Shown here in pieces: positions 18,439 through 47,903 of a stretch of DNA of 64,000 nucleotides; the first letter of the stretch is position 1; every line of letters starts with the position of its first letter. A program made the translations under genes and the position numbers. The stretch lies in the IMG/VR virus record IMGVR_UViG_2851938318_000001, one strand, 5' to 3'. The stretch comes from a virus. Lineage: Duplodnaviria; Heunggongvirae; Uroviricota; Caudoviricetes. The notes beneath the pieces were generated by a model. The model made no database searches and had not been told where the DNA came from. It was given only the letters and a program-made list of their open reading frames with translations.

Positions 18439-19998
18439 ATGACTGTTCGGATTGTATCTAACGCAGTAAATGCGCTTATTTCTGGCGCAGATGACAAGGT
18501 AAAGCAACTGGTGCAGCAAATGTTGAGCTACGAAGTCGAGACTGGCGACTGGAAGGGCACAAGCACGATGTTCAACTGGAGTAAAAACTCGTTCCCTGCT
18601 GGCTTTGCCAAGCCTGTAGCAGCGAACTTGAACAAGGCGGGCATCAAATGTGTTCATATCCGCAAAGACAAAGCCCCGGCGCTTGGTAAACCAAATCCGG
18701 CGGTTAACCCATTCCCATACAATCCTGATTATGCGTATCAGGATCAGACTGTGGAAACACTGGTTCGAGAGGGAATGATGATTGCGCAGATCGCTACTGG
18801 TGGCGGGAAATCTAATGTTGCCTGCAAAGCAGCTGCACGTATCGGTCGAATGACATTATTTTTAACAACCCGCTCTGTTCTGATGTTTCAGATGGCCGAA
18901 AACTTCCAGAGATCCATCGACTACCGCGCCGAAAATGGCGAACCGTGGTTAAAAGACCAAAAGGTTGGAGTAATTGGCTCGGGTGAGTTCCAGGTATCAC
19001 GACATATCAACGTCGCTACAGTTCAAACTCTTGCAAGTTTCCTTGAAGAACCACCACGCGATGCAACTCCAGATAAGAAAAGCTACCACCTCAAACGTCG
19101 GGAGTTGGTGAAACGCTTCCTTTCAAGTGTCTCTCTTCTTATTCTGGAAGAGGCGCATGAGTCTTCAGGCTCTAATTTCTATGACATTGCCAGATTATGT
19201 GCGAACGCAGACTATCGCCTGGCGCTTACGGCAACGCCGTTCATGAAGGATTCTACGGAAGCCAACATGCGTCTGATGGCTGTAGCCGGGCGAATTGAAA
19301 TAAAAGTCACGGAAAAGTACCTGATTGATAGAGGAATTCTGGCAAAGCCATACTTCCTTTATCATAAAGTTGCCTACAAACCGGACGAGGTCAGAATCAA
19401 GGCAGAACTTGCTAACAAACACCTCAATTTTAGAGTAGGTATGAGCACTGCCTACCAAAAGGCTTATCAGTTGGGGATCGTGTATAATTTGGGACGTAAC
19501 GAGGCCATTGTGCGCGAAGCATTGCTCTATAAGCAACACTCTCTCAACTGCATGACTCTGGTTCGTCTTAAACGCCACGGGCAAATCCTGATGGAGATGA
19601 TGAAGGAGTCCGGTCTTAGAGTTGACTTCATCTATGGGGAATCGAACCAGGCGACAAGGCAAGCAAAGCTGAACAGTTTAGCGTCTGGTGAAATAGATGT
19701 TTTAATAGGCTCGACTATTCTGGATGTCGGTGTTGATGTGCCAAGCGTTGGTGCGGTCATTCTTGCTGGTGGCGGGAAAGCAGAAGTTGAAATGAGACAA
19801 CGTGTCGGTCGTGGCTTACGAGCCAAGAAGAATCAGGCAAACGTGTGTTTTATCACTGATTTCATTGACATTAGCAACAAATACCTGTTGTCTCACTCTT
19901 ATGAGCGAAAACACATCATCGACACTACACCTGGCTTTGCAGAAGGTGTATTGCCAATTGATGGCACATTCGATTTTGGAGTTCTGAAACGAGATTAG
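18439..19998 (+). CDS. superfamily-2 helicase (DEAD/SNF2-like)
   Basis: motif I IATGGGKS, motif II LILEEAH, motif VI QRVGRGLRA. Confidence 0.75.
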   Translation: MTVRIVSNAVNALISGADDKVKQLVQQMLSYEVETGDWKGTSTMFNWSKNSFPAGFAKPVAANLNKAGIKCVHIRKDKAPALGKPNPAVNPFPYNPDYAYQDQTVETLVREGMMIAQIATGGGKSNVACKAAARIGRMTLFLTTRSVLMFQMAENFQRSIDYRAENGEPWLKDQKVGVIGSGEFQVSRHINVATVQTLASFLEEPPRDATPDKKSYHLKRRELVKRFLSSVSLLILEEAHESSGSNFYDIARLCANADYRLALTATPFMKDSTEANMRLMAVAGRIEIKVTEKYLIDRGILAKPYFLYHKVAYKPDEVRIKAELANKHLNFRVGMSTAYQKAYQLGIVYNLGRNEAIVREALLYKQHSLNCMTLVRLKRHGQILMEMMKESGLRVDFIYGESNQATRQAKLNSLASGEIDVLIGSTILDVGVDVPSVGAVILAGGGKAEVEMRQRVGRGLRAKKNQANVCFITDFIDISNKYLLSHSYERKHIIDTTPGFAEGVLPIDGTFDFGVLKRD

Positions 19999-20000
19999 TT

Positions 20001-20279
20001 ATGAGCGAAAAGAAAACAACTTATTGCCAAGTGGCATTGTCTGATAAAGCCAATGAAAAACTTGGAAAATTTCAAATAAAACTCAAAGAGAAAAAAATCA
20101 AGATGTCTAAGGCTGAAGTTATCAATGCCATTCTGGAGACGATGACTATGGCTGAATTTGACAAAGTCACATCTGCCGTTGGGGTTTCCGCTAAGACGCG
20201 TGAGAAAATCATGCGCATCTATGAGAACTCCAATATGACAAAAAAAGATCTAGAGGAAATACTGAGCAGGTTGCCGTAA
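20001..20279 (+). CDS. hypothetical protein
   Basis: 92 aa ORF starting 3 bp after helicase stop. Confidence 0.4.
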   Translation: MSEKKTTYCQVALSDKANEKLGKFQIKLKEKKIKMSKAEVINAILETMTMAEFDKVTSAVGVSAKTREKIMRIYENSNMTKKDLEEILSRLP

Positions 20280-20311
20280 CATTTCATATTTACCCCCTAT
20301 CTACTAAATCT

Positions 20312-20911
20312 ATGATGTGCTCACTTGTTAGAAAGGAGCACATCATGAGTTGGTTAAAAGAATTATCATTTGTTGACACCACTGGCGCTAAGAAAAATCA
20401 TTCTTTCTGGAAAGTCAGCGATCCTTCTGATTTTCTTGTTGGTGCTAATGCTGCTTTTGAATTGCTTAACTTTTATCAACGTTATCCTGAAATGAAACAC
20501 AGTCCACTCCTGTACAGAATAACAAACGATATGAATAGGTCTGGTTTATTATCAAGTGAGTCAGCGAAAGGCTTTTTTAGCAAAATTACGCCTCACATAT
20601 CATTCGATGCAGCAAACGAAATTGATTATCTATCCACAAAATCTCAAGAACAATTATCTGTGCCACCTGAGAAAAAAGAAAGACGAATTGCCAGCATTGA
20701 AAATATATCGAAAGAGCTTCGCACAACAACGTTGAGGCTGCTGAACTTTCTTACGCTACTTAATTGGATAGATGATCAAACATTGATTCCATCAACCGAT
20801 GCGTTGGATAACAGAGTCCTTAGGCTGAACAAAAAATCGCAATTTGGTTTTGTGTTCACCAAAAAAGGTGAAGATTTAATCAAAAGAAAATATAGATTAT
20901 TGAATGATTAA
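20312..20911 (+). CDS. hypothetical protein (AT-rich gene; likely start near 20345)
   Basis: 199 aa ORF followed by perfect 10-bp-stem hairpin at 20919-20946. Confidence 0.4.
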   Translation: MMCSLVRKEHIMSWLKELSFVDTTGAKKNHSFWKVSDPSDFLVGANAAFELLNFYQRYPEMKHSPLLYRITNDMNRSGLLSSESAKGFFSKITPHISFDAANEIDYLSTKSQEQLSVPPEKKERRIASIENISKELRTTTLRLLNFLTLLNWIDDQTLIPSTDALDNRVLRLNKKSQFGFVFTKKGEDLIKRKYRLLND

Positions 20912-21296
20912 TAGTCTACATGCAGGTGTATGAGAGCACCTGCATGTGACATTCATCACATTTTTGAATGTATATACCTTCGGCTGAAAAAAGATCTTGA
21001 TAGGCTGAATGATATTTGTAGGCTTCGCCTCCGAAGAAATTCGGAGGATATATGCGACAATTTATAAAAACGTGTGACCTAAGAAATATAGTAGATGATA
21101 TTGCATGTGATGAAATTAGCAAAAAAGAGAAGAACAAAAACGCCAATTAACGCTATCTACCTATAAATCTGAAGAGTTCAATAGGATACATATCTGAAAC
21201 ACGCCCTCGACAATACCAAAAAGATTTGTCGAGGGCGTCGGGCTTTCCCTATGTCTGAACGATTAAATTTTACAGCAATTAAATATTTTGTATATG

Positions 21297-22097
21297 TTAT
21301 TCTTCTGGTGGTACGACAAAATCGTCGAGCTTATTCTTTTCGTCCCGAAGCAACCTGATTTCTTCTTCTGTTATGCATTTGTCATAATCTGTTTGTTCAG
21401 AATGGCACAGCGCAACTGCGAATGGATAGCCGGTGTAAGACAGCCCTCTAACAGGTTCTAATTCACCGTTGTCTTTTTTCCTAAATTTGTAAAAGTCAGG
21501 AGTGTCATAATTGGTGACGCTAACAAGAGCATATTTATCATTTTCTCTTGCATACACTTCACTAACACCTCTCGATTCTCCCAACTCTCTACTCACATAT
21601 GTCGAATCACTTGCAGCATCAAACACAGCCTGACCTAATGGAGTTTTTTTTAAATCATCTATTTTCTCTTTTTCTTTCCTGATTTTAGATTCGTTTTCCA
21701 GATAAAGTTTCACACCATTTTCTTTACATGCTAGATTTTGGCGTTCAAAACGTAATCGTTCACTTGCCGAGTTGGTACTTTTATCCATTGTAACGAATAC
21801 AATCGGGTTACGTTCACGAACATCAAAGATGTGTGCATTGAATGCGGTCGCACCTGTATAGGCGTTCAAGACGTTTTTGCCATTCACCTCTCCACATACC
21901 ATATATGAATAGCTATTTTCACCTAACTGAATAGCTCGCATATTCGTGAACCGACCAGCATCAGGATCTAGCAGTGTAGAGCGAATATCCTTTTCAACTA
22001 GATTTATGACTCGCTCTTCATCAGAATCACAACCTGTTAATAGTAAAGCCGCTATTAACAATGCTAATGAGTATTTTTTATTCACCCCATTCTTCAT
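21297..22097 (-). CDS. lipoprotein (moron-like)
   Basis: signal peptide plus lipobox (LALLIAALLLTGC); AT-rich; convergent with flanking + strand genes. Confidence 0.6.
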   Translation of the reverse strand: MKNGVNKKYSLALLIAALLLTGCDSDEERVINLVEKDIRSTLLDPDAGRFTNMRAIQLGENSYSYMVCGEVNGKNVLNAYTGATAFNAHIFDVRERNPIVFVTMDKSTNSASERLRFERQNLACKENGVKLYLENESKIRKEKEKIDDLKKTPLGQAVFDAASDSTYVSRELGESRGVSEVYARENDKYALVSVTNYDTPDFYKFRKKDNGELEPVRGLSYTGYPFAVALCHSEQTDYDKCITEEEIRLLRDEKNKLDDFVVPPEE

Positions 22098-22199
22098 GAA
22101 ACTTATTCCATAATCAATTTTTGGTGGAATGTACGGTTAGTCTGTCTACGCATCATAGAGATGTATATAATGACCAAAAAAGACTTAAAAAGGTAGACT

Positions 22200-22721
22200 A
22201 TGGTTAAAGACATCACCTACGGCATACCGGCTGAAGTCTGGCCGCGAGACTACGAACATGCTGAAAACATACTTATGTTCTGGCGGAAGAACAACATTCC
22301 TGTAAGAGTCACGCTTGAAGACGGTCAGGTGTTTTGCATGTACGTTCAGGGGACAATGCCTTCCCGCAATAAGCTAGATTTATGCCCGCTTCCATATGAT
22401 AAAGAAAATCGTATAAGACTCCCACTTGAGCGCATTAGCACAATTGAATCAGGTGTAATCGATGGCATTGCTCGCGAGTTCAAAGGTAGGCTAACAATAC
22501 ATCCAGACTATGTTGACAATCAGCCATCACGCCGTGACTTTTTTGCGATATGTCGCAAGGCTTATCAAAACGACCAATCTATAAGGGTCTACATGGCAGA
22601 CGGTCGTGAAATAGAAGGGGTGTCAAGAGGCGTTGATGCTTGCCAGGTCACTCTTAAGTTAGAAGACGGCAGAAAAATACTTGTTTTCTTCGATTGGGTT
22701 GAACGAATCCTTCCTTTTTAA
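22200..22721 (+). CDS. hypothetical protein
   Basis: 173 aa ORF followed by hairpin terminator at 22725-22760. Confidence 0.45.
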   Translation: MVKDITYGIPAEVWPRDYEHAENILMFWRKNNIPVRVTLEDGQVFCMYVQGTMPSRNKLDLCPLPYDKENRIRLPLERISTIESGVIDGIAREFKGRLTIHPDYVDNQPSRRDFFAICRKAYQNDQSIRVYMADGREIEGVSRGVDACQVTLKLEDGRKILVFFDWVERILPF

Positions 22722-22913
22722 ATCTATAAGGGTAATAACCGGCTAAGTCCGGTTATTATTTTACATGCCATTCATTTAAAACTCTTTCAATGCTACGCTG
22801 TATAAATATATAAGGTTAAAAGCCTGAATTGATTATTTATTTAGGGAACACCTTCGACGATCTCGCTTTTATTTCTAGGACTTTCATCCCTGCAAAAAAT
22901 TTAAAAAAAACAC

Positions 22914-22941
22914 TTGCAATCTTTTTTCACGTATCGATAAT
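22914..22941 (+). promoter_or_regulatory. sigma70-like promoter (TTGCAA-16-GATAAT)
   Basis: -35/-10 hexamers about 70 bp upstream of 23008 ORF, within AT-rich intergenic region. Confidence 0.4.
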
Positions 22942-23007
22942 TGAACTCGTCGAAAGCGAGCTAGCTAACGACAGTAAAAAATAAATTCATTTTAATTTTT
23001 CGTAAGG

Positions 23008-23667
23008 ATGTCCATCATGGCTAACATTATCATTTCTAAAAAATCCATCATTGAAGCTGCTTCCATTGTATCCGATGAACTGCGCGAAAAAGCAGATCTG
23101 GCAACTCAAACATATAACGAACATTATAAAAATGGTACGCACACTAAAGCAGACAAAGCAAATATGCAAGCTGCGACCACTAAACTTGCTTACTTCATCA
23201 ACAACGTTGTAAACGCTGTTGAAGACGAAAAATTATGCTCTGTTTTCTACTATGCAATTAAAGCAAGCAAACAAGCGCCAGAAGTATTTTTCCGTGATGC
23301 AATGACTAATAGTTATTCACTGGAAAAACTGGTTTATCTGGTTAAATCCATTAAAGCTGGTAAATGTGTTTATTCCGTCGCTGATATGTCAGGATCTCGT
23401 GTATTCGCTTTAATCGATATGATTAACGACGAGATCGACACGTTCACCAATGGCGCTGTTTTCGATTTAATGAATGAAGCTAAAAAAGCGTGTGAAATTA
23501 AATTGGACGCTGGATATACTCAAGCCAACCAGTTGATCAATCTTTGCGAACGTCTCGGACTTGTTGAAAAAGTCAAAGGAGCTGGGAGCGCCAAAGCTGG
23601 TACGCAGCAATATCGCTTCATTAAAAATGATTTCTACAATTATTTAGCTGATGCTTTCAAAGCGTAA
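23008..23667 (+). CDS. hypothetical protein
   Basis: 219 aa AT-rich ORF with RBS taaggatg; terminator hairpin 23678-23700. Confidence 0.45.
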   Translation: MSIMANIIISKKSIIEAASIVSDELREKADLATQTYNEHYKNGTHTKADKANMQAATTKLAYFINNVVNAVEDEKLCSVFYYAIKASKQAPEVFFRDAMTNSYSLEKLVYLVKSIKAGKCVYSVADMSGSRVFALIDMINDEIDTFTNGAVFDLMNEAKKACEIKLDAGYTQANQLINLCERLGLVEKVKGAGSAKAGTQQYRFIKNDFYNYLADAFKA

Positions 23668-23677
23668 TTAATGGAAT

Positions 23678-23700
23678 CAAGCGCCCACTTTGGGCGCTTT
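23678..23700 (+). terminator. rho-independent terminator
   Basis: gcgcccactttgggcgc followed by ttt. Confidence 0.55.
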
Positions 23701-23920
23701 AAAGGAGCTTTCAAAAATGGTCAGCTATGACAAGATCCGCGCGGAATATCGCGCAAAGTATCGCGCTTATAAACTGGAATTAATCGATGATTTGATCGCG
23801 CAACGCGACCAATTAAATTTTACGTTTTCTGATTTGCTTAACAGTAAACGAGATTGTAAGCGTAAACGTGAATATTTACGTTTAAGCGCATTAATCGGAA
23901 AACTGCAAAATTCTATTTAA
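23690..23920 (+). CDS. hypothetical small protein (likely start 23707)
   Basis: RBS aaaggag precedes ATG at 23707 (MVSYDKIRAEYRAKY...). Confidence 0.4.
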   Translation: MGALKELSKMVSYDKIRAEYRAKYRAYKLELIDDLIAQRDQLNFTFSDLLNSKRDCKRKREYLRLSALIGKLQNSI

Positions 23921-23940
23921 TTTTTTTAAGGAGCTTAATC

Positions 23941-24168
23941 ATGGTTATTTTCATCTCTGGCGTAAATATCAATAATCATACTCTTGTTTATGATATTGCT
24001 GGTTTAGCTGGATATGCTCTAAGTTCTGAAGTGGTTGATGAAACAACGTTTAAAATAAACATCAATGACGTAGAACATAGAGCGCGCGTAGGAATCAATG
24101 AAGCTGATGTTACTTTAATGCTTCAAGAATTTTTAAACGCTGGCTTTAATATTCACTTAGAAAAATAA
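23941..24168 (+). CDS. hypothetical small protein
   Basis: 75 aa ORF with RBS aaggag; followed by two hairpin terminators. Confidence 0.4.
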   Translation: MVIFISGVNINNHTLVYDIAGLAGYALSSEVVDETTFKININDVEHRARVGINEADVTLMLQEFLNAGFNIHLEK

Positions 24169-24176
24169 AAACAATA

Positions 24177-24201
24177 GCGCCCACTATGGGCGCTTTTTTT
24201 C
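24177..24201 (+). terminator. rho-independent terminator
   Basis: agcgcccactatgggcgct hairpin followed by T7 run. Confidence 0.7.
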
Positions 24202-24225
24202 GTTTCCAATACTCCCACCATAACG

Positions 24226-24250
24226 CGCCAATGATGGCGCGTTTTTTATT
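24226..24250 (+). terminator. rho-independent terminator
   Basis: cgcgccaatgatggcgcg hairpin followed by tttttt. Confidence 0.65.
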
Positions 24251-24619
24251 GTCTTTAACTCACTCCAACAACATAAAAATAAGCACCAAAATAACGCCAT
24301 AGACGCGCTTTTATATCCTTGCCAGTACATACCCATTACTTAACACATTAACGCGCTTAAAACGCGTTATAGCGCATAGTTAATCATTGGCTTTTAGTCT
24401 TGCTATGTAATCCGCGTTTAATTGTCGGCGCGGATCGGCATTTTGTGTTGTTCTGTATCCGCTCGCGTATTATGTGCGCGTGATTTTTCACATAATCACA
24501 CCACTTAATCACGTATGTGATTACGCTACGAAAGAAATCTGGATGTCTCAGGCGACGAAAGTCATCATAATTTTCCCCGCTCGCCTGTCCGACAACCGCT
24601 GGTTGGATTCCACCAGCTT

Positions 24620-24770
24620 CCCGATGTTTTTTCTACACAAAGGCGAATGCAGCCGTTTCCCGAAAAAATCCTGGCCGTTCCCCGTCGGCTCATGAATACG
24701 TTCCTCGCCGTTTCTGAAAATTTCCCTGCGGCAGCTGGTGGCTATAGAGAAAGGGCCGTTTCTGGCCCTC
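24620..24770. repeat. degenerate iteron-like array (CCGTTTCC / GCCGTTTCTG units)
   Basis: at least 4 units: cagccgtttcccgaaaa, ggccgttccccgtcgg, cgccgtttctgaaaa, ggccgtttctggcc. Confidence 0.55.
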
Positions 24771-24777
24771 TTCTCAG

Positions 24778-25260
24778 TTACACGCCATCAAGGATGTGGA
24801 TGCGGTTGCTTGCGTATACATTCAGCATAAAGTTAGCGCAAAACAGTTTCCATGTGTCAACGCCAGCGGTATACGTAATATTTTTGCATTTAATTGCATT
24901 GTTGGCGATCCGCATCCCCTGCGATACTGCTTCATCGTCGGAAAATTTGAACGACGATTGAGTTTTAATCCAGACAGAAATCTGCGTAGCGAACTCAATC
25001 AGCTTGGACTGGCAGAATCGCCCGGAGCGCACCGGAAAGACGAACGTTCCGAATCCAGAATTTACCACATACGCTTTCTCAAATACCCGCGAGTAACGAC
25101 GATTACCAATGATGTCACGTGCAATAATGCATTTTTCTTGTGCTGACAGTTCTACCGTCTCATTGTCGCGCCATGCACCAAGTACTCGTTTTTCAATGTC
25201 AGAGAACGTTACAGCGATATTGCCATGTGCGGGTGCGTTTACAGTAGCGATAAAATTCAT
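24778..25260 (-). CDS. hypothetical early protein
   Basis: 160 aa ORF preceded by conserved promoter/operator unit. Confidence 0.5.
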   Translation of the reverse strand: MNFIATVNAPAHGNIAVTFSDIEKRVLGAWRDNETVELSAQEKCIIARDIIGNRRYSRVFEKAYVVNSGFGTFVFPVRSGRFCQSKLIEFATQISVWIKTQSSFKFSDDEAVSQGMRIANNAIKCKNITYTAGVDTWKLFCANFMLNVYASNRIHILDGV

Positions 25261-25277
25261 GATTAATTCCTTATCGT

Positions 25278-25314
25278 AAATAACAAATTGTTTTCTTGTT
25301 GTTGTTAATTATCG
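25278..25314 (-). promoter_or_regulatory. conserved early promoter/operator unit
   Basis: plus-strand aaataacaaattgttttcttgttgttgttaattatcg (rc: CGATAAT...AAGAAAACAAtTTGTT). Confidence 0.55.
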
Positions 25315-25433
25315 CTGTACGAATAAGGCGTCAAAGTTGAAAACTACGGTAGCCGGACGGGAACAGGTGGGTTTGTCGGTTGCCTGGAGGTAAGAGGTTG
25401 GTGTTTTTAGCCTGCGGGAAACAAGATGGTCAT

Positions 25434-25460
25434 TTAAGGCCACCAGCATTGGTGGCCTTA
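25434..25460 (-). terminator. rho-independent terminator
   Basis: aaggccaccagcattggtggcctt. Confidence 0.55.
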
Positions 25461-25464
25461 TTCT

Positions 25465-25752
25465 TTAGTGGAGTAGAGCGATGTCGATGGTATCCCCTGA
25501 ATCATCCACACGGATCATCAGCATGGCGAAGGCGTTTAGTGGATAACTGGCGTGCCATTCAGGGAAGCGGTCATCTCGCATGAAGTCAGCAATGTCGTAA
25601 ACGCAGCCCTCAAAGTGGAAGAATCGCGTGCTTACCTGCTCGTCATAATCCACATGATCCATTTCTTGCTGTTCTGTTTCCGGCAAGTCCAGCCATGATT
25701 CGAGGAATACATTTTGTGCTTTGGTGGTAATGGTGAAATCAGTCATGAGCAT
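25465..25752 (-). CDS. hypothetical early protein
   Basis: 95 aa ORF with conserved promoter unit upstream and hairpin terminator downstream. Confidence 0.5.
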   Translation of the reverse strand: MLMTDFTITTKAQNVFLESWLDLPETEQQEMDHVDYDEQVSTRFFHFEGCVYDIADFMRDDRFPEWHASYPLNAFAMLMIRVDDSGDTIDIALLH

Positions 25753-25938: not shown

Positions 25939-26238
25939 TCATTGCTTTCGATGTGCTGCAACGAACTCTTTCAACGTTTCTAGCGCATGATAAAGACCGA
26001 CGATATTTGAGCCGTAGTCGATGCAAACAGGGGAAAGTGATGTCTTCCCGTCGTGCGATGAATATGCCGATGTGGTAGTTGCAGGGTAATCGTGGCGATA
26101 GCAAACCGCAGTTTTTGGGTGTCGCAGATACGCTATCCCTCTTTCAAGATCATAAATTGCGCGTCGCAGGTCATGCTCCTGCGCTCTGGTCAATTTTGCC
26201 ATCGTAATACTCTCACTTAATGCGGCAAAGCCAGCCAT
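25939..26238 (-). CDS. hypothetical early protein (true start probably near 26202)
   Basis: 99 aa ORF; its first codons lie inside a duplicated segment. Confidence 0.4.
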   Translation of the reverse strand: MAGFAALSESITMAKLTRAQEHDLRRAIYDLERGIAYLRHPKTAVCYRHDYPATTTSAYSSHDGKTSLSPVCIDYGSNIVGLYHALETLKEFVAAHRKQ

Positions 26239-26477
26239 GATTCGAGGAATACATTTTGTGCTTTTGGGGTAATGGTGAAATCAGTCATCGTGCCCCCCAT
26301 CTCCTGCAACTGTGCAACGGTGATATCTGGACACAGCCCGTCGATCCACACCCACACGTCAATGATGCTGTCACCGGCTTCAAAATGGTGAAATGCGCGC
26401 TCAAGCTGCTGATTGTTATCCACAGGCTCATTTGCTAGCTGCGCCCAGATTTGCTGGACTTGAGTAATAGTTTTCAT
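26217..26477 (-). CDS. hypothetical early protein with C-terminus derived from a duplicated segment
   Basis: C-terminal MTDFTITPKAQNVFLESWLALPH duplicates the N-terminus of the 25465..25752 product. Confidence 0.45.
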   Translation of the reverse strand: MKTITQVQQIWAQLANEPVDNNQQLERAFHHFEAGDSIIDVWVWIDGLCPDITVAQLQEMGGTMTDFTITPKAQNVFLESWLALPH

Positions 26478-34598: not shown

Positions 34599-34897
34599 TA
34601 TGTTGAAGCTATATATTTTTGAACTCTATCTCTTAAAAAAGATGTTAATAAGATGCTAACTATTGAAAGGCATAAATATATACAATTCCAACAAACGTTA
34701 TTTTTAACAAATTTTTTCTCTCTGTTGACTTTTGCGAAAGCCTTGTCTGGCCTAAATTGCGCGGAAGCTACTTTTTCCTTCCTGAGTTATCCACAGAGTT
34801 ATGCACTTGCATGCATAACCTATACACACTATCTTAATTCGCAAGACACTGATGTTGCGGTATTGAAGGTTCATTGGGTTAAAAATAGACATTAAAA

Positions 34898-41535: not shown

Positions 41536-42434
41536 CTAATCATACTTGGAGGTATTTATCACCAGAATTTTGTTTGTATAAATCTTCTTAATATCCCATG
41601 TGACATTACCGGAATACCATTGACCGTTATATACTTGGTTTCCAGTTGCACCTGTCATTGTTACATAGACAGGTCTGTCGTAATCGGTTCGTCTATAGTT
41701 ATATACCCCAACCATAGCAGGCATTACCGCACATGGATACCCCATATCTATTGTAAATTGAGGGTCAGAAATAGTGATAAGTTTCGCATCAAGGGGCATC
41801 ATCTCACCGTGATACACCATTGCGCCTGCGCTGTTATACATGGCAATGCCATAGCCAGAATGTGGTAACACCATATCAGAAAAAGCATAAACTGTTATTG
41901 TTCCGGGGCTACCATTTACCTGATGCAATCTGAGAGCATTGTATCCGTTACTATGCTCATGAATAAACATCATGTTCGCCTTATTACTGCTTTTTATGAA
42001 GAAAAAGCATGATTTGTTTGATGGAATTGATGTTTGAAAAACAGAACCTTTAGATGTAGACATTGTCCCTTTATTAATCAGATTTTGCGGAGTAAATTCT
42101 GGACTCATCCACAAACTTCCATCTGATTGTGTAATTGACATCCCGAACATAATTATCCCCAGTATGTGTATATGTAAGAACCAAGCCCCGTATATAAATT
42201 TGACCAACTAACCGTATTTCCATTAATAGTAACTGTTGGAACAGGTAAATTAATGTAGTTGTCGTTGTTAAGAGGCATCAATGACCACACGGCATGTAGC
42301 GATTTACCCGGTGGCGGATTGGAGTACGTCTTAGAGCCTGATGACGCAGTAAATCGATCAAGAAAAAAAATAGGAGTAAGGAAGCCAGTAACGTTAATTC
42401 CTTTATTGTTGTAAATCCCTGTACCGTATGCCAT
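41536..42434 (-). pseudogene. low-GC Tyr/Asn/Gly-rich gene, apparently frameshifted or two overlapping ORFs
   Basis: ORFs 42153..42434 and 41536..42207 overlap in different frames; markedly AT-rich. Confidence 0.3.
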
Positions 42435-47093: not shown

Positions 47094-47903
47094 TCATCCA
47101 ATAGTGTACTCCGCGACAAACTTCTTAACGATCGGTGATTCTTCGTTCAATGTTAGATTTCCACCGCCTCTAACGGCAATTCCTGTCGCTGGAAATACAG
47201 CCATCATTTGCCCAGCCTGAGTTGACGCAGTGTTAAGCGGATACGGTTTTTCTGGATTGCTCATTAAAGCAATCTTAATACTATTACTTGTAGCCTTCTT
47301 TTCTGTGAGAAGGTGTCTCATGGAAATTACCGTGTAAACACTAATATCTGGACCTCCGCTAAACCAATTAAGAAGGTTTAATATCTTATCCTTTGCTTTG
47401 ACAGGCGCGTTATCGTAAGCGTCTAAGAAAATATCTTTTTCTAAGCCCGCTTTATTGAAAAACGAATCATCTTTATCACTTAAAGTAAAACGAGGACCTC
47501 TTGCAGTACGAGCTTTTTTATTTGTATTGCTATCATTTGACTGTTGAACTTTTAATTCATCATTAACCTCAACACACTCTTCAACCTCAATAAATCCCAA
47601 TTGTTCTGGCTCGTTTTCGGCAGCTTCAACACTTTCAGCGTTAATTACGTTTATAGGCTCATGCGCTAACTCCAACTCATTTAAAGCAGAGCTGAAATCA
47701 CCTGCTTTTTCTTCATTGAACAGTTCTTCGGCAACATCATCAGAACTCATGGCTACGCCAGCATCTAGGCCGAGCAGCAGATCGTCAATATCATCAGTAT
47801 TTTCAACCTGTGCAGCTTTTTTTACTGGTTCATCAAGTGATTGCAACATGGCTGTCAGCTCGTCCAGATCATCATTTGTCATTACATTTTCAACCGAACT
47901 CAT
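47094..47903 (-). CDS. hypothetical protein with highly acidic N-terminal half
   Basis: 269 aa; N-terminal 120 aa rich in D/E. Confidence 0.4.
   Translation of the reverse strand: MSSVENVMTNDDLDELTAMLQSLDEPVKKAAQVENTDDIDDLLLGLDAGVAMSSDDVAEELFNEEKAGDFSSALNELELAHEPINVINAESVEAAENEPEQLGFIEVEECVEVNDELKVQQSNDSNTNKKARTARGPRFTLSDKDDSFFNKAGLEKDIFLDAYDNAPVKAKDKILNLLNWFSGGPDISVYTVISMRHLLTEKKATSNSIKIALMSNPEKPYPLNTASTQAGQMMAVFPATGIAVRGGGNLTLNEESPIVKKFVAEYTIG

What the first reader, a model, noticed from the sequence alone, without database searches (positions are those of the whole stretch)
20312..24168. AT-rich moron-like block including a 266-aa lipoprotein on the opposite strand
Genes here are visibly lower in GC than the phage backbone. 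The lipoprotein (lipobox LTGC) is convergent with its neighbours and bounded by AT-rich spacers and hairpins, typical of acquired superinfection-exclusion or receptor-blocking morons. The downstream small genes (23008-24168) carry their own sigma70-like promoter and strong terminators.
Basis: inference. Interest (0 to 1): 0.45.

Follow-up and report, generated by a model that had tools for sequence, protein, structure and literature searches.

The report
Phage-plasmid cargo slot carrying a lipoprotein
The AT-rich block is real, but only its left third is swappable cargo, including a lysogen-expressed envelope lipoprotein of unknown, probably protective, function; the rest consists of core, tightly regulated genes found in essentially every SSU5/pHCM2-type phage-plasmid.

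Summary
The window is an E. coli SSU5/pHCM2-type phage-plasmid, 97% identical here to phage Cyrano (pLF82). Genes at 20001-24168 have GC 0.33-0.39 against a mean of 0.46. The 266-aa ORF has a textbook lipobox. Strong hairpins and terminators bound the units.

The block is composite.
- Cargo (about 20284-22205): this lies in a recombination hotspot with at least 12 architectures in 84 related loci, and 64 of 84 hold an exported protein. The lipoprotein occurs in only 60 of about 830 family plasmids. It is under purifying selection. Published RNA-seq of its 98%-identical Cyrano orthologue shows expression in the lysogen. It therefore fits the moron definition.
- Core genes: the FljA-family gene (830 plasmids, half from non-flagellate hosts) and the 219-aa gene (814) are universal. 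The low GC of the 219-aa gene is ancestral in all lineages. It is silent in the lysogen and sits behind a promoter/operator region that is invariant across the family. It is not a moron.

The lipoprotein is predicted to be periplasmic. Asp at +2 suggests inner-membrane retention. It has two cystatin/NTF2-like domains. Its function is untested, and exclusion or immunity-type binding is my best guess.

Overall this is an ordinary kind of feature with some interesting regulatory detail.

The parts
20001..20279 (+). 92-aa gene (PHROG 1466). It is a near-universal family gene (absent or undetectable in the most divergent clade) and forms the left flank of the cargo slot. It is low in GC only in the E. 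coli clade.
   Evidence: Detected in all related loci except the four of the most divergent (helicase about 70%) group. GC is 0.381 in the E. coli clade against 0.45-0.47 in others. The Cyrano orthologue CYRAN_117 is 12-fold above background in the lysogen.
20312..20911 (+). 199-aa accessory gene (PHROG 13473) of unknown function. The likely true start is 20345, giving 188 aa.
   Evidence: Present in 23 of 84 loci and 177 plasmids. dN/dS is 0.12-0.26. It is weakly expressed in the Cyrano lysogen. There are no Pfam, NCBIfam or PADLOC hits. The AF2 model was unusable at pLDDT 41.
20918..20948 (.). Perfect 13-bp-stem hairpin immediately after the 199-aa gene. It lies in a segment (20899-21025) shared even by loci that lack that gene.
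   Evidence: Free energy -21.8 kcal/mol. Homology blocks 20899/20934/20946-21025 occur in L027, L032 and L055.
21052..21150 (+). 32-aa remnant of a 377-aa HNH endonuclease gene. The N-terminal ~20 and C-terminal ~13 codons are joined at a 15-nt repeat (21101-21115).
   Evidence: The intact gene is in L028 and matches Pfam HNH at E = 3e-6. Overlapping homology blocks in L028 share window 21101-21115 at both junctions. Sequence read.
21201..21238 (.). Long hairpin 59 nt downstream of the lipoprotein stop codon. It is the likely terminator or insulator between the convergent genes.
   Evidence: Free energy -26.6 kcal/mol on the + strand and -29.9 on the - strand.
21297..22097 (-). 266-aa lipoprotein (PHROG 20234), the accessory cargo gene. 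It has a signal peptide and lipobox LTG|C23, with Asp at +2. The mature protein is 244 aa with two helix-plus-sheet (cystatin/NTF2-like) domains and four further invariant Cys residues.
   Evidence: Found in 60 plasmids. dN/dS is 0.08-0.14. The Cyrano orthologue is expressed in the lysogen.
22098..22199 (.). 102-bp AT-rich divergent spacer (GC 0.32) between the lipoprotein and fljA. It carries a conserved TGTATA(T)AAT -10-like element about 30 nt upstream of fljA.
   Evidence: Homology to slot variants resumes only at 22206-22209, so this spacer belongs to the cargo.
22200..22721 (+). 173-aa FljA-family protein (Pfam PF03614 'repressor of phase-1 flagellin'). It is a core gene whose alleles are swapped as a module.
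   Evidence: Pfam E = 5e-81 over the full length. Found in 830 plasmids including 341 Klebsiella, 62 Yersinia and 6 Shigella. Breakpoints lie at 22206-22209 and 22719. dS = 1.3 between alleles within the E. coli clade. Moderately expressed in the lysogen.
22729..22762 (+). Intrinsic terminator-like hairpin with a T-run directly after fljA.
   Evidence: Free energy -15.3 kcal/mol, followed by TTTT.
22840..22972 (+). Family-invariant control region of the 219-aa operon. It comprises box TTTAGGGAACACCTTC (22840-22855), box TTTATTTCTAGGAC (22868-22881), -35 CTTGCA (22913-22918), -10 GATAAT (22936-22941) and the leader dyad GTCGAAAGCGAGCTAGCTAACGAC (22949-22972).
   Evidence: Alignment of 13 diverse loci and 49 unique sequences. 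The boxes are unique in the window. In the dyad 93% of cells are paired against 12-39% for shifted controls, and two pairs show compensatory changes.
23008..23667 (+). 219-aa core gene (PHROG 1513) of unknown function. Its low GC is ancestral and it is silent in the lysogen.
   Evidence: Found in 814 plasmids. GC is 0.38-0.40 in all five lineage groups. CYRAN_113 is at background level. dN/dS is 0.08-0.21.
23680..23700 (+). Terminator hairpin AGCGCCCACTTTGGGCGCTTT. It is copy 1 of a 21-nt direct repeat that flanks the small-gene cassette.
   Evidence: family D1. It coincides with the homology breakpoint at 23710.
23717..23920 (+). 67-aa gene (PHROG 6145, mis-named 'MIT/CorA transporter' in databases). 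It is a replaceable small cassette. The listed TTG start at 23690 lies inside the hairpin.
   Evidence: The PHROG match starts at residue 10 of the 76-aa ORF. Presence is patchy. Breakpoints lie at 23710 and 23924.
23941..24168 (+). 75-aa gene (PHROG 1585). It has the lowest GC of the block (0.325, GC3 0.22) and occurs as variable alleles (42-100% identity).
24176..24243 (.). Two strong intrinsic terminators that close the rightward transcription unit. The one at 24176-24196 is bidirectional and is copy 2 of the 21-nt repeat. The second is at 24222-24243.
   Evidence: Rfam gave only sub-threshold sRNA-terminator look-alikes here.

Best explanation
The AT-rich block is a mosaic of two kinds of genes in an SSU5/pHCM2-type phage-plasmid.

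(1) Cargo. Window ~20284-22205 is exchangeable cargo in a recombination hotspot. The hotspot lies between a near-universal 92-aa gene and the third codon of a core FljA-family gene. In this element the cargo consists of a 199-aa cytoplasmic protein of unknown function, the stump of an HNH endonuclease gene, and a 266-aa lipoprotein gene on the opposite strand.

The lipoprotein is a true moron:
- It is accessory.
- It is low in GC.
- It is insulated by hairpins.
- It is transcribed in the lysogen while virion genes are off.

Its product is exported and lipidated at Cys23. The Asp at +2 in the Escherichia/Salmonella/some-Enterobacter clade predicts retention on the periplasmic face of the inner membrane. 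The mature protein consists of two disulfide-stabilised cystatin/NTF2-like binding domains.

Inferred, not shown: it acts as a lysogenic-conversion envelope factor. It would bind and neutralise something that arrives in the periplasm, most likely the DNA-delivery apparatus of a superinfecting phage, or otherwise an envelope-targeting enzyme or toxin.

(2) Core genes. The FljA-family gene, the 219-aa gene and the terminator-flanked small genes downstream are not morons. The first two are core genes of the whole family. The 219-aa operon is AT-rich in every lineage and silent in lysogeny. It is driven by a promoter with family-invariant upstream boxes and a leader dyad. That makes it a repressed phage operon.
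For: Identity of the element: 100% to an E. coli plasmid and 97% to phage Cyrano over this region.

Hotspot: 86 helicase-anchored loci were fetched, of which 84 (window and Cyrano/SSU5 loci included) gave a readable slot, with at least 12 slot architectures. Eleven are empty, 43 hold a ~140-aa lipoprotein in either orientation, 10 hold this lipoprotein, 7 and 4 hold two other signal-peptide proteins, and 9 hold no recognisable exported protein. Breakpoints recur at 20254-20283, 21025, 22206-22209 and 22719.

Accessory versus core counts in 72,556 plasmids: lipoprotein 60, 199-aa gene 177, FljA-like 830, 219-aa gene 814.

Real genes: dN/dS is 0.08-0.26 for all four.

Lipoprotein features: lipobox, +2 Asp or Lys depending on clade, and invariant C68, C124, C231 and C241.

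The N-domain family has 2,240 representative clusters of small exported proteins. The two-domain form is limited to 2-3 clusters.

Expression (PMC9928086 S1 Table, log2(fpkm+5)):
- Lipoprotein: 4.8 in overnight LB, 8.0-9.3 in growing and intracellular bacteria. It ranks about 9th of 123 Cyrano genes at 6 h in medium. Structural genes are at about 3-4.
- FljA-like: 4.2 rising to 7-8.
- 92-aa gene: 6.8 rising to 9-9.9.
- 219-aa gene: 2.5-3.7, reaching 5.6 late.

Ancestral low GC of the 219-, 76- and 75-aa genes in all lineages where they occur.

Invariant control region.
Against: - No experiment or homology links the lipoprotein to exclusion or immunity. There are no Pfam, NCBIfam or PADLOC hits, and the fold is generic.
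- The authors of the LF82 study did not list it as a moron, because it is only 2.9-fold above background in overnight LB.
- Its rise in medium and macrophages is shared by many Cyrano genes, so it may partly reflect growth phase or plasmid copy number.
- Orthologues differ at the sorting residue (Asp against Lys at +2). That is awkward for a single site of action.
- Carriage does not track the phage's own receptor-binding alleles. The Cyrano-type J C-terminus (99-100%) occurs with the lipoprotein (L009, L015) and without it in at least 10 loci carrying other cargo. One lipoprotein-positive locus (L028) has a 78% J allele. The Cyrano-type fibre tip occurs both with it (L015) and without it (L014).
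- No promoter for the lipoprotein was identified by the consensus scan.
Confidence: 0.45

Rival explanations
1. One reading: the whole 20312-24168 block is one recently acquired, AT-rich moron island. The lipoprotein and the downstream small genes would all be autonomous lysogenic-conversion genes.
For: There is a contiguous run of low-GC genes. The block has its own promoter-like site and strong terminators. Almost the entire flanking backbone is on the opposite strand.
Against: The FljA-like and 219-aa genes are present in 830 and 814 plasmids and in every sufficiently long related locus, down to 70% helicase identity. The 219-, 76- and 75-aa genes have GC 0.38-0.40 in every lineage where they occur, and fljA has backbone GC. 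The 219-aa gene and its downstream neighbour are silent in the lysogen. Homology breakpoints divide the block into at least five independently exchanging modules.
Confidence: 0.05
2. The lipoprotein is a host-fitness or virulence factor rather than a phage-exclusion factor. It might aid envelope robustness, serum or macrophage survival, or adhesion, in the manner of lambda Bor or plasmid TraT.
For: Its orthologue is about 20-fold higher in cell-culture medium and inside macrophages than in overnight LB in the pathogenic strain LF82. It is carried by a subset of gut and clinical Escherichia, Enterobacter, Cronobacter and Salmonella plasmids. The same J and fibre alleles occur with and without it, which argues against a role tied to the phage's own receptor.
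Against: It has no similarity to Bor/Iss, TraT, Lom/Ail or any virulence family. Induction occurs equally in medium without macrophages. The predicted inner-membrane retention in the E. coli clade does not suit a surface-exposed factor.
Confidence: 0.2
3. The lipoprotein is a periplasmic inhibitor or immunity protein against an enzyme or toxin (protease, muramidase, bacteriocin or contact-dependent effector) and not against phage.
Confidence: 0.2
4. The lipoprotein serves the phage-plasmid's own life cycle, for example lysis timing, spanin-like function, virion release or plasmid maintenance. On this view it is not cargo in the functional sense.
For: It is adjacent to and divergently transcribed from a core regulator, with a similar expression profile. 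It has diverged in step with host genus (98%, 72-75%, 53%), which suggests long residence in some lineages.
Against: It is absent from about 93% of family members, which are otherwise complete. Rz and Rz1 spanins are encoded elsewhere in Cyrano. It is expressed in the lysogen while the lysis genes stay near background.
Confidence: 0.08

Closest known systems
Phage morons encoding envelope lipoproteins that exclude superinfecting phage: T5 Llp; Cor of phi80/N15/HK022; Ltp of Streptococcus phage TP-J34 (from my own knowledge of the literature)
   Same: It is an accessory prophage gene encoding a lipoprotein. It is expressed during lysogeny, low in GC and bounded by hairpins. If it is retained in the inner membrane, its topology resembles Ltp, a lipoprotein on the outer face of the cytoplasmic membrane that blocks DNA entry.
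   Different: There is no sequence or PHROG relationship to these proteins. It is three times larger than Llp or Cor and has two cystatin/NTF2-like domains. No exclusion phenotype has been tested. Carriage is not coupled to the phage's own J or fibre alleles, unlike the receptor-matched Llp and Cor.
Phage Cyrano (pLF82) CYRAN_115 'putative membrane lipoprotein' and the other members of PHROG 20234
   Same: This is the same gene at 98% amino-acid identity and in the same position. Transcript data exist for it.
   Different: Nothing functional is known about it. The published study did not class it as a moron, because its LB-overnight level fell below their cut-off.
SSU5_122-type ~140-aa lipoprotein, the commonest occupant of the same slot
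   Same: It occupies the same slot between the 92-aa gene and fljA and is also a lipoprotein.
   Different: It is unrelated beyond the signal peptide. It gives only a weak DUF2846-like signal. It is usually on the + strand.
Salmonella FljA, the post-transcriptional repressor of fliC (mechanism as cited in PMC2652032)
   Same: The 173-aa protein matches the family model over its full length at E = 5e-81. As in fljB-fljA, it often lies directly downstream of a gene for a variable exported protein.
   Different: It is only about 39-42% identical to chromosomal FljA proteins. No flagellin gene is linked to it (Cyrano gene list). It is universal in phage-plasmids of Klebsiella, Yersinia pestis and Shigella, which make no flagella. 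No fliC-leader-like sequence is present in the window.
Colicin M immunity protein Cmi (PDB 2xgl) and the cystatin/latexin inhibitors
   Same: They share the helix-on-curved-sheet fold. Cmi is also a membrane-anchored periplasmic protector.

Membership tests
Bacterial lipoprotein (Lgt/LspA/Lnt substrate) | Positively charged n-region, hydrophobic h-region and lipobox [LVI][ASTVI][GAS]C within the first ~35 residues | tested here: met
   MKNGVNKKYS (net +3), LALLIAALL (mean hydropathy 3.2), L-T-G-C23. The lipobox Gly and Cys are invariant in 8 orthologues.
Bacterial lipoprotein (Lgt/LspA/Lnt substrate) | Actual lipidation, globomycin-sensitive processing and membrane localisation, including the +2 Asp inner-membrane retention rule | not testable with these tools
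   Only the sequence signal is available. It is Asp-Ser at +2/+3 here and Lys at +2 in three of the eight aligned orthologues (P0006, P0008 Cronobacter, P0009).
Moron (accessory, autonomously expressed prophage gene) | Present in some close relatives and absent from others at the same position | tested here: met
   Lipoprotein in 10 of 84 loci and 60 of ~830 plasmids. 199-aa gene in 23 of 84 loci and 177 plasmids. NOT met by the fljA-like gene (830) or the 219-aa gene (814).
Moron (accessory, autonomously expressed prophage gene) | Transcribed in the lysogen independently of lytic genes | tested here: met
   This comes from published RNA-seq of the 98%-identical Cyrano orthologue, not from this element. 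log2 values are 8.0-9.3 against about 3-4 for structural genes, but only 2.9-fold above background in overnight LB. NOT met by the 219-aa gene or the gene downstream of it, which are at background.
Moron (accessory, autonomously expressed prophage gene) | Own promoter and terminator | tested here: inconclusive
   Strong hairpins lie 3' of the gene. No consensus promoter was found in the 102-bp divergent spacer.
Moron (accessory, autonomously expressed prophage gene) | Base composition deviating from the backbone | tested here: met
   GC 0.388, GC3 0.315, z = -1.7. The Cronobacter-type orthologues are at 0.47, close to their backbone.
Cor / Llp / Bor-Iss / TraT exclusion or serum-resistance lipoproteins | Sequence membership in the family (Pfam or PHROG model) | tested here: not met
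   No Pfam family matched at E <= 0.01. The PHROG hits are only to unknown-function families 20234, 2320, 36625 and 35207.
Cor / Llp-type self-receptor masking | Carriage coupled to the phage's own receptor-binding protein type | tested here: not met
   The 99-100% Cyrano-type J C-terminus occurs with the lipoprotein (L009, L015) and with other cargo in at least 10 loci. L028 carries the lipoprotein with a 78% J allele. The same fibre tip occurs with it (L015) and without it (L014). The sample is small and not phylogenetically corrected.
FljA / Flag1_repress (PF03614) | Full-length match to the family model above the gathering score | tested here: met
   270.9 bits against a cut-off of 24, covering residues 4-170 of 173.
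FljA / Flag1_repress (PF03614) | Genetic linkage to an alternative flagellin gene (fljB, flkA or flnA type) | tested here: not met
   No flagellin appears among the 123 Cyrano genes or next to the gene in any of 84 loci.
FljA / Flag1_repress (PF03614) | Represses translation of fliC mRNA | not testable with these tools
   Indirect evidence argues against this as the conserved role. 409 of the 830 carrier plasmids are from Klebsiella, Yersinia or Shigella. The window contains no fliC-leader mimic.
Known anti-phage defence systems (PADLOC) | Match to a defence-system protein model | tested here: not met
   Eight proteins of the block were scanned. The only hit was a non-significant SspC match at E = 0.004 for the 199-aa protein.

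The most novel reading that the evidence does not exclude
The FljA-family protein is not a flagellin repressor here. It is a core RNA-binding regulator of SSU5-type phage-plasmids. Its target would be the adjacent, family-invariant leader dyad of the silent 219-aa operon, making this an immI-like translational switch that gates an antirepressor-type or early function. The slot just upstream of it would be a dedicated hotspot for envelope-protein cargo, and the cargo would supply the regulator's promoter. This would parallel the fljB-fljA arrangement, in which a variable surface-protein gene is coupled to a post-transcriptional repressor.
Probability: 0.2. Interest if true: 0.6.

Novelty: new member of a known kind. 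Interest (0 to 1): 0.32.

Why it matters
SSU5/pHCM2-type phage-plasmids are common in clinical Enterobacteriaceae. About 830 of 72,556 sequenced plasmids belong to the family, including pHCM2 of S. Typhi and pMT1/pFra of Y. pestis.

A defined hotspot that usually holds an exported protein gives a concrete place to look for lysogenic-conversion and exclusion functions in these elements. A specific gene is now known to be expressed in a pathogenic lysogen.

The analysis also shows that low GC alone misclassifies genes. Two thirds of this 'moron-like' block are ancient core genes. One of them is a flagellin-repressor homologue that cannot be repressing flagellin in half of its hosts. It sits next to one of the most conserved non-coding elements of the family.

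Tried and rejected
- The 199-aa protein as a KilA-C/ANT-type DNA-binding protein. This was a recollection from its C-terminal sequence pattern. It got no support from a permissive Pfam scan of 8 members or a profile search of PDB sequences. The AF2 model from the permitted shallow alignment was unusable at pLDDT 41. The idea remains untested.
- A fliC-leader mimic as a target for the FljA-like protein. The E. coli K-12 fliC leader gives only chance-level 9-12-mer matches in the window.
- Known RNA families and tRNAs in 19500-25500. None reached threshold. The sub-threshold sRNA hits at 24166-24250 are just the terminators.
- Defence-system models (PADLOC) and NCBIfam. Nothing significant.
- Sequence links from the lipoprotein, the 92-aa, 219-aa and FljA-like proteins to solved structures. 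None. Foldseek against PDB for the lipoprotein gave no hit at E <= 1e-3.
- The afdb50 fold library was unavailable.
- Relatedness of the 266-aa lipoprotein to the SSU5_122 lipoprotein in the same slot. Only the signal peptides align.
- Coupling of lipoprotein carriage to J or fibre alleles. Not seen.
- A conserved RNA structure over the whole 219-aa leader. It is weak, at -2.8 kcal/mol. Only the 24-nt dyad is supported, and a DNA operator cannot be told from an RNA hairpin.
- Literature linking SSU5-type elements with fljA. None found. One 2026 preprint on an SSU5-type element could not be opened.

Full report
WHAT THE ELEMENT IS

The 6.5 kb around the finding is 100% identical to an E. coli plasmid (NZ_CP028430.1). 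It is 97% identical to Escherichia phage Cyrano (pLF82) and 78% identical in part to Salmonella phage SSU5. In total 775 plasmid records match, almost all of them non-mobilisable and about 100-115 kb long. The window is therefore an SSU5/pHCM2-type phage-plasmid. The block lies downstream of two ParB-like genes and a DEAD-box helicase. It is one of the few stretches transcribed rightward.

THE OBSERVATION

It is confirmed.
- GC is 0.366-0.386 in the four 1-kb windows from 20001 to 24000, against 0.42-0.53 elsewhere.
- Gene by gene, GC is 0.325-0.388 (z = -1.7 to -3.1 against 85 ORFs) and GC3 is 0.22-0.38. The single exception is the gene at 22200-22721, with GC 0.446.
- The 266-aa ORF on the minus strand has a canonical lipoprotein signal: n-region charge +3, a hydrophobic core, and lipobox LTG|C23.
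- It is convergent with the 199-aa gene but divergent from the next gene.
- Spacers have GC 0.31-0.36 and contain strong hairpins at 20918-20948, 21201-21238 and 22729-22762.
- Terminator-like sites are enriched (10 against 3.5 +/- 1.5), with very good ones at 24176-24194 and 24222-24243. Promoter-like sites are not enriched (14 against 14.5).

CORE VERSUS ACCESSORY

I anchored on the helicase and fetched 86 related loci, 6 from genomes and 80 from IMG/VR. I then scored each gene of the block by tblastn.
- The FljA-family gene and the 219-aa gene are present in every locus that extends far enough. That includes the most divergent group, with helicase 70-72%, FljA 35-39% and the 219-aa protein 48% identical. 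The 92-aa gene is detected in all but that most divergent group.
- The 199-aa gene is in 23 of 84 loci and the lipoprotein in 10 of 84.
- Across 72,556 plasmids the counts are: FljA-like 830, 219-aa 814, 199-aa 177, lipoprotein 60. The 60 comprise 43 Escherichia, 9 Enterobacter at about 73% identity, 6 Cronobacter at about 53%, 1 Salmonella at 72%, and one partial Klebsiella match.
- All four genes are under purifying selection, with dN/dS 0.08-0.26.

THE SLOT

Between the end of the 92-aa gene and the start of fljA there are at least 12 architectures.
- 11 loci are empty.
- 43 hold a ~140-aa lipoprotein of the SSU5_122 type, on either strand.
- 10 hold the 266-aa lipoprotein, always on the minus strand.
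- 7 hold a 119-aa signal-peptide protein that shares the LLDPD...NAYGAYTG motif with the N-domain of the 266-aa protein.
- 4 hold a 196-aa signal-peptide protein.
- 9 further loci hold only proteins without a recognisable export signal (162-aa and 67-aa ORFs). 204-aa and 162-aa proteins also occur alongside exported cargo.
- One locus holds a 377-aa HNH endonuclease (Pfam E = 3e-6).
- In total 64 of 84 loci carry at least one exported protein here.

The window keeps a 32-aa stump of the HNH gene (21052-21150). It was produced by deletion between 15-nt repeats.

Homology to close relatives breaks repeatedly at the same places:
- 20254-20283.
- 21025.
- 22206-22209, which is the third codon of fljA, so the fljA upstream region travels with the cargo.
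- 22719, the fljA stop codon.
- 23710 and 23924.
- 24197.

The breakpoints at 23710 and 24197 coincide with the two copies of a 21-nt terminator hairpin (23680-23700 and 24176-24196) that flank the small-gene cassette. Within the E. coli clade, fljA alleles differ at saturated synonymous divergence (dS 1.3) although the adjacent helicase is 99% identical. This is classical modular mosaicism.

COMPOSITION RE-EXAMINED

The 219-, 76- and 75-aa genes have GC 0.38-0.42 in every lineage where they occur, whatever the backbone GC (0.45-0.50). For the 219-aa gene that includes the most divergent group (0.400 against 0.487). The fljA gene tracks the backbone. The 92-aa gene is AT-rich only in the E. 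coli clade. The lipoprotein is at 0.39 here but 0.47 in the Cronobacter-type lineage. Low GC is therefore a mark of cargo only for the left part of the block. For the right part it is an old, conserved property.

EXPRESSION

Misson et al. (PMC9928086) published RNA-seq of LF82, the natural Cyrano lysogen. In their S1 Table the lipoprotein orthologue CYRAN_115 (98% identical) gives these log2(fpkm+5) values:

| Condition | Replicate 1 | Replicate 2 |
|---|---|---|
| Overnight LB | 4.98 | 4.68 |
| 1 h in medium | 7.87 | 8.17 |
| 6 h in medium | 9.21 | 9.15 |
| 1 h in macrophages | 9.43 | 9.24 |
| 6 h in macrophages | 8.67 | 8.78 |

Structural genes sit at about 3-4. The lipoprotein ranks about 9th of 123 Cyrano genes at 6 h in medium. 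It missed the authors' moron list only because that list used overnight LB, where it is 2.9-fold above background against a 5-fold cut-off.

Other genes of the block:
- The FljA-like gene (CYRAN_114) rises from 4.2 to 7-8.
- The 92-aa gene (CYRAN_117) is a listed moron, at 12-fold.
- The 199-aa gene is low (3-5.9).
- The 219-aa gene (CYRAN_113) is at background (2.3-3.9) until late in macrophages, when it reaches 5.6. The next downstream gene (CYRAN_112) stays between 2.3 and 4.9.

These data come from a close relative, not from this exact element.

THE LIPOPROTEIN

The full-length family is tiny: 9 clusters among 5.8 billion proteins, all on phage-plasmid-sized contigs.

The alignment shows invariant Cys at positions 68, 124, 231 and 241. 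The +2 residue is Asp in five of the eight aligned orthologues (the window protein, P0002-P0004 and the Salmonella protein P0005) and Lys in P0006, the Cronobacter protein P0008 and P0009. By the established +2 rule for Enterobacteria (my own knowledge), Asp predicts inner-membrane retention and Lys predicts Lol-dependent transfer to the outer membrane.

AlphaFold2 gives a confident model (pLDDT 83, pTM 0.73) with two helix-plus-four-strand-sheet domains joined by long helices.

Fold comparisons:
- Foldseek finds no significant PDB relative.
- BFVD returns small phage lipoproteins of 110-123 aa.

A profile search of 1.84 billion representatives finds 2,240 clusters. Nearly all are ~110-140-aa exported proteins matching residues ~7-100 (KDPxSAxF...CGxVNAKNxxGGYxG motif). 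None has a Pfam assignment to that domain. Only 2-3 clusters have the two-domain form. One relative sits on a phage-like 50-kb contig.

Function therefore cannot be read from homology. I infer a periplasmic binder acting in the lysogen, and protection against incoming phage or envelope-targeting proteins is the most likely purpose.

One prediction of a receptor-matched, Llp/Cor-like role failed. The Cyrano-type J C-terminus (99-100%) occurs both with the lipoprotein (L009, L015) and with other cargo in at least 10 loci. L028 has the lipoprotein with a 78% J allele. The same fibre tip occurs with it (L015) and without it (L014). The sample is small, and the alternative cargo proteins could be functional analogues, so this weakens the idea but does not exclude it.

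THE FljA-FAMILY GENE

It matches PF03614 over its full length at E = 5e-81. It is about 39-42% identical to chromosomal FljA proteins. FljA proteins block fliC translation post-transcriptionally (as summarised in PMC2652032).

Here no flagellin gene is linked to it. Of the 830 carrier plasmids, 409 are from Klebsiella, Yersinia (pMT1/pFra-type plasmids of Y. pestis) or Shigella. Those hosts make no flagella (my own knowledge). The conserved role in this family is therefore unlikely to be flagellin repression.

THE 219-aa OPERON

Upstream of 23008 lies a control region that is more conserved than the proteins around it. Its parts are:
- Box TTTAGGSAACACCTTC.
- Box TTTATTTCTARGAC.
- -35 CTTGCA, then 17 nt, then -10 GATAAT.
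- A leader dyad RTCG-AA-AGCG-loop-CGCT-AA-CGAY.

Many positions are invariant even in the 70%-helicase group. The boxes occur nowhere else in the 64-kb window.

In the dyad 93% of cells are paired, against 12-39% for shifted controls. The outer pair shows AU<->GC compensation and an inner pair shows GC<->AU compensation. One variant has ATCAG...CTGAT. Most pairs never vary, however, and a DNA operator would show the same symmetry as an RNA hairpin.

Together with the silence of this operon in the lysogen, this identifies a repressed phage operon rather than free-standing morons. The adjacency of an expressed RNA-binding-family protein suggests that it is the regulator, but nothing proves that. 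I record this only as the most novel reading not excluded.

VERDICT

It is accessory, compositionally distinct, insulated and expressed in lysogeny. The block as a whole is not an acquired island.

The kind of thing is well known: a cargo hotspot in a temperate phage with an envelope lipoprotein. The gene is already annotated in Cyrano. What is new here:
- The definition of the slot and its bias toward exported proteins.
- The re-reading of public expression data.
- The conserved control region next to a flagellin-repressor homologue that cannot be acting on flagellin in half its hosts.

Interest is modest.

Noticed in passing
window 22840-22972: The control region upstream of the 219-aa gene is invariant across the whole phage-plasmid family. 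It has two upstream boxes, -35 CTTGCA, -10 GATAAT and a 24-nt leader dyad with compensatory changes. It is unique in the window and more conserved than the flanking proteins.
   Followed up: yes
window 22200-22721: An FljA-family 'repressor of phase-1 flagellin' is a core gene of about 830 plasmids. About half of them are from non-flagellate Klebsiella, Yersinia pestis and Shigella, and none has a linked flagellin gene. Its alleles are exchanged exactly at the gene boundaries.
   Followed up: partly
window 23680-23700 and 24176-24196: The same 21-nt terminator hairpin (AGCGCCCAC-W-TTGGGCGCTTT) flanks the 67-aa/75-aa gene pair. It coincides with homology breakpoints, which suggests that terminator copies act as recombination joints for small-gene cassettes.
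   Followed up: partly
window 21052-21150 (intact copy in L028, slot-relative 1057-2190): A 32-aa stump of a 377-aa HNH endonuclease gene, formed by an in-frame deletion between 15-nt repeats (ATTGCATGTGATGAA).
   Followed up: partly
window 23690-23920: Database annotation of this small soluble protein as a 'MIT family metal ion transporter CorA' (SSU5_119, PHROG 6145) is evidently a mis-annotation. The protein is 67 aa with no membrane segment. The mechanical TTG start at 23690 lies inside a terminator hairpin, and the real start is probably the ATG at 23717.
   Followed up: partly
fljA-219-aa spacer in related loci (e.g. L010 12862-13459, L040 13371-13998): This spacer comes in two size classes, about 300 nt (as in the window) and about 600-640 nt. 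Some relatives therefore carry an extra ~300-bp insert between the fljA terminator and the conserved control region. I did not examine its content.
   Followed up: no
window 25465-25752 and 26217-26477: Two neighbouring minus-strand ORFs share a repeated segment (MTDFTIT.KAQNVFLESWL). This indicates a local duplication in the region of small genes to the right of the block.
   Followed up: no
window 34653-34895, 41536-42434, 47094-47903: Other low-GC genes in the window (z = -1.4 to -2.4) could be further cargo or further ancestral AT-rich core genes. The present case shows that composition alone cannot tell which.
   Followed up: no
PMC9928086 S1 Table, Cyrano sheet: Many Cyrano genes rise together from overnight LB to growing or intracellular conditions: the toxin-antitoxin pairs, the LexA-like peptidase CYRAN_98 and CYRAN_40. 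Part of the lipoprotein's apparent induction may therefore be a general growth-phase or copy-number effect.
   Followed up: no
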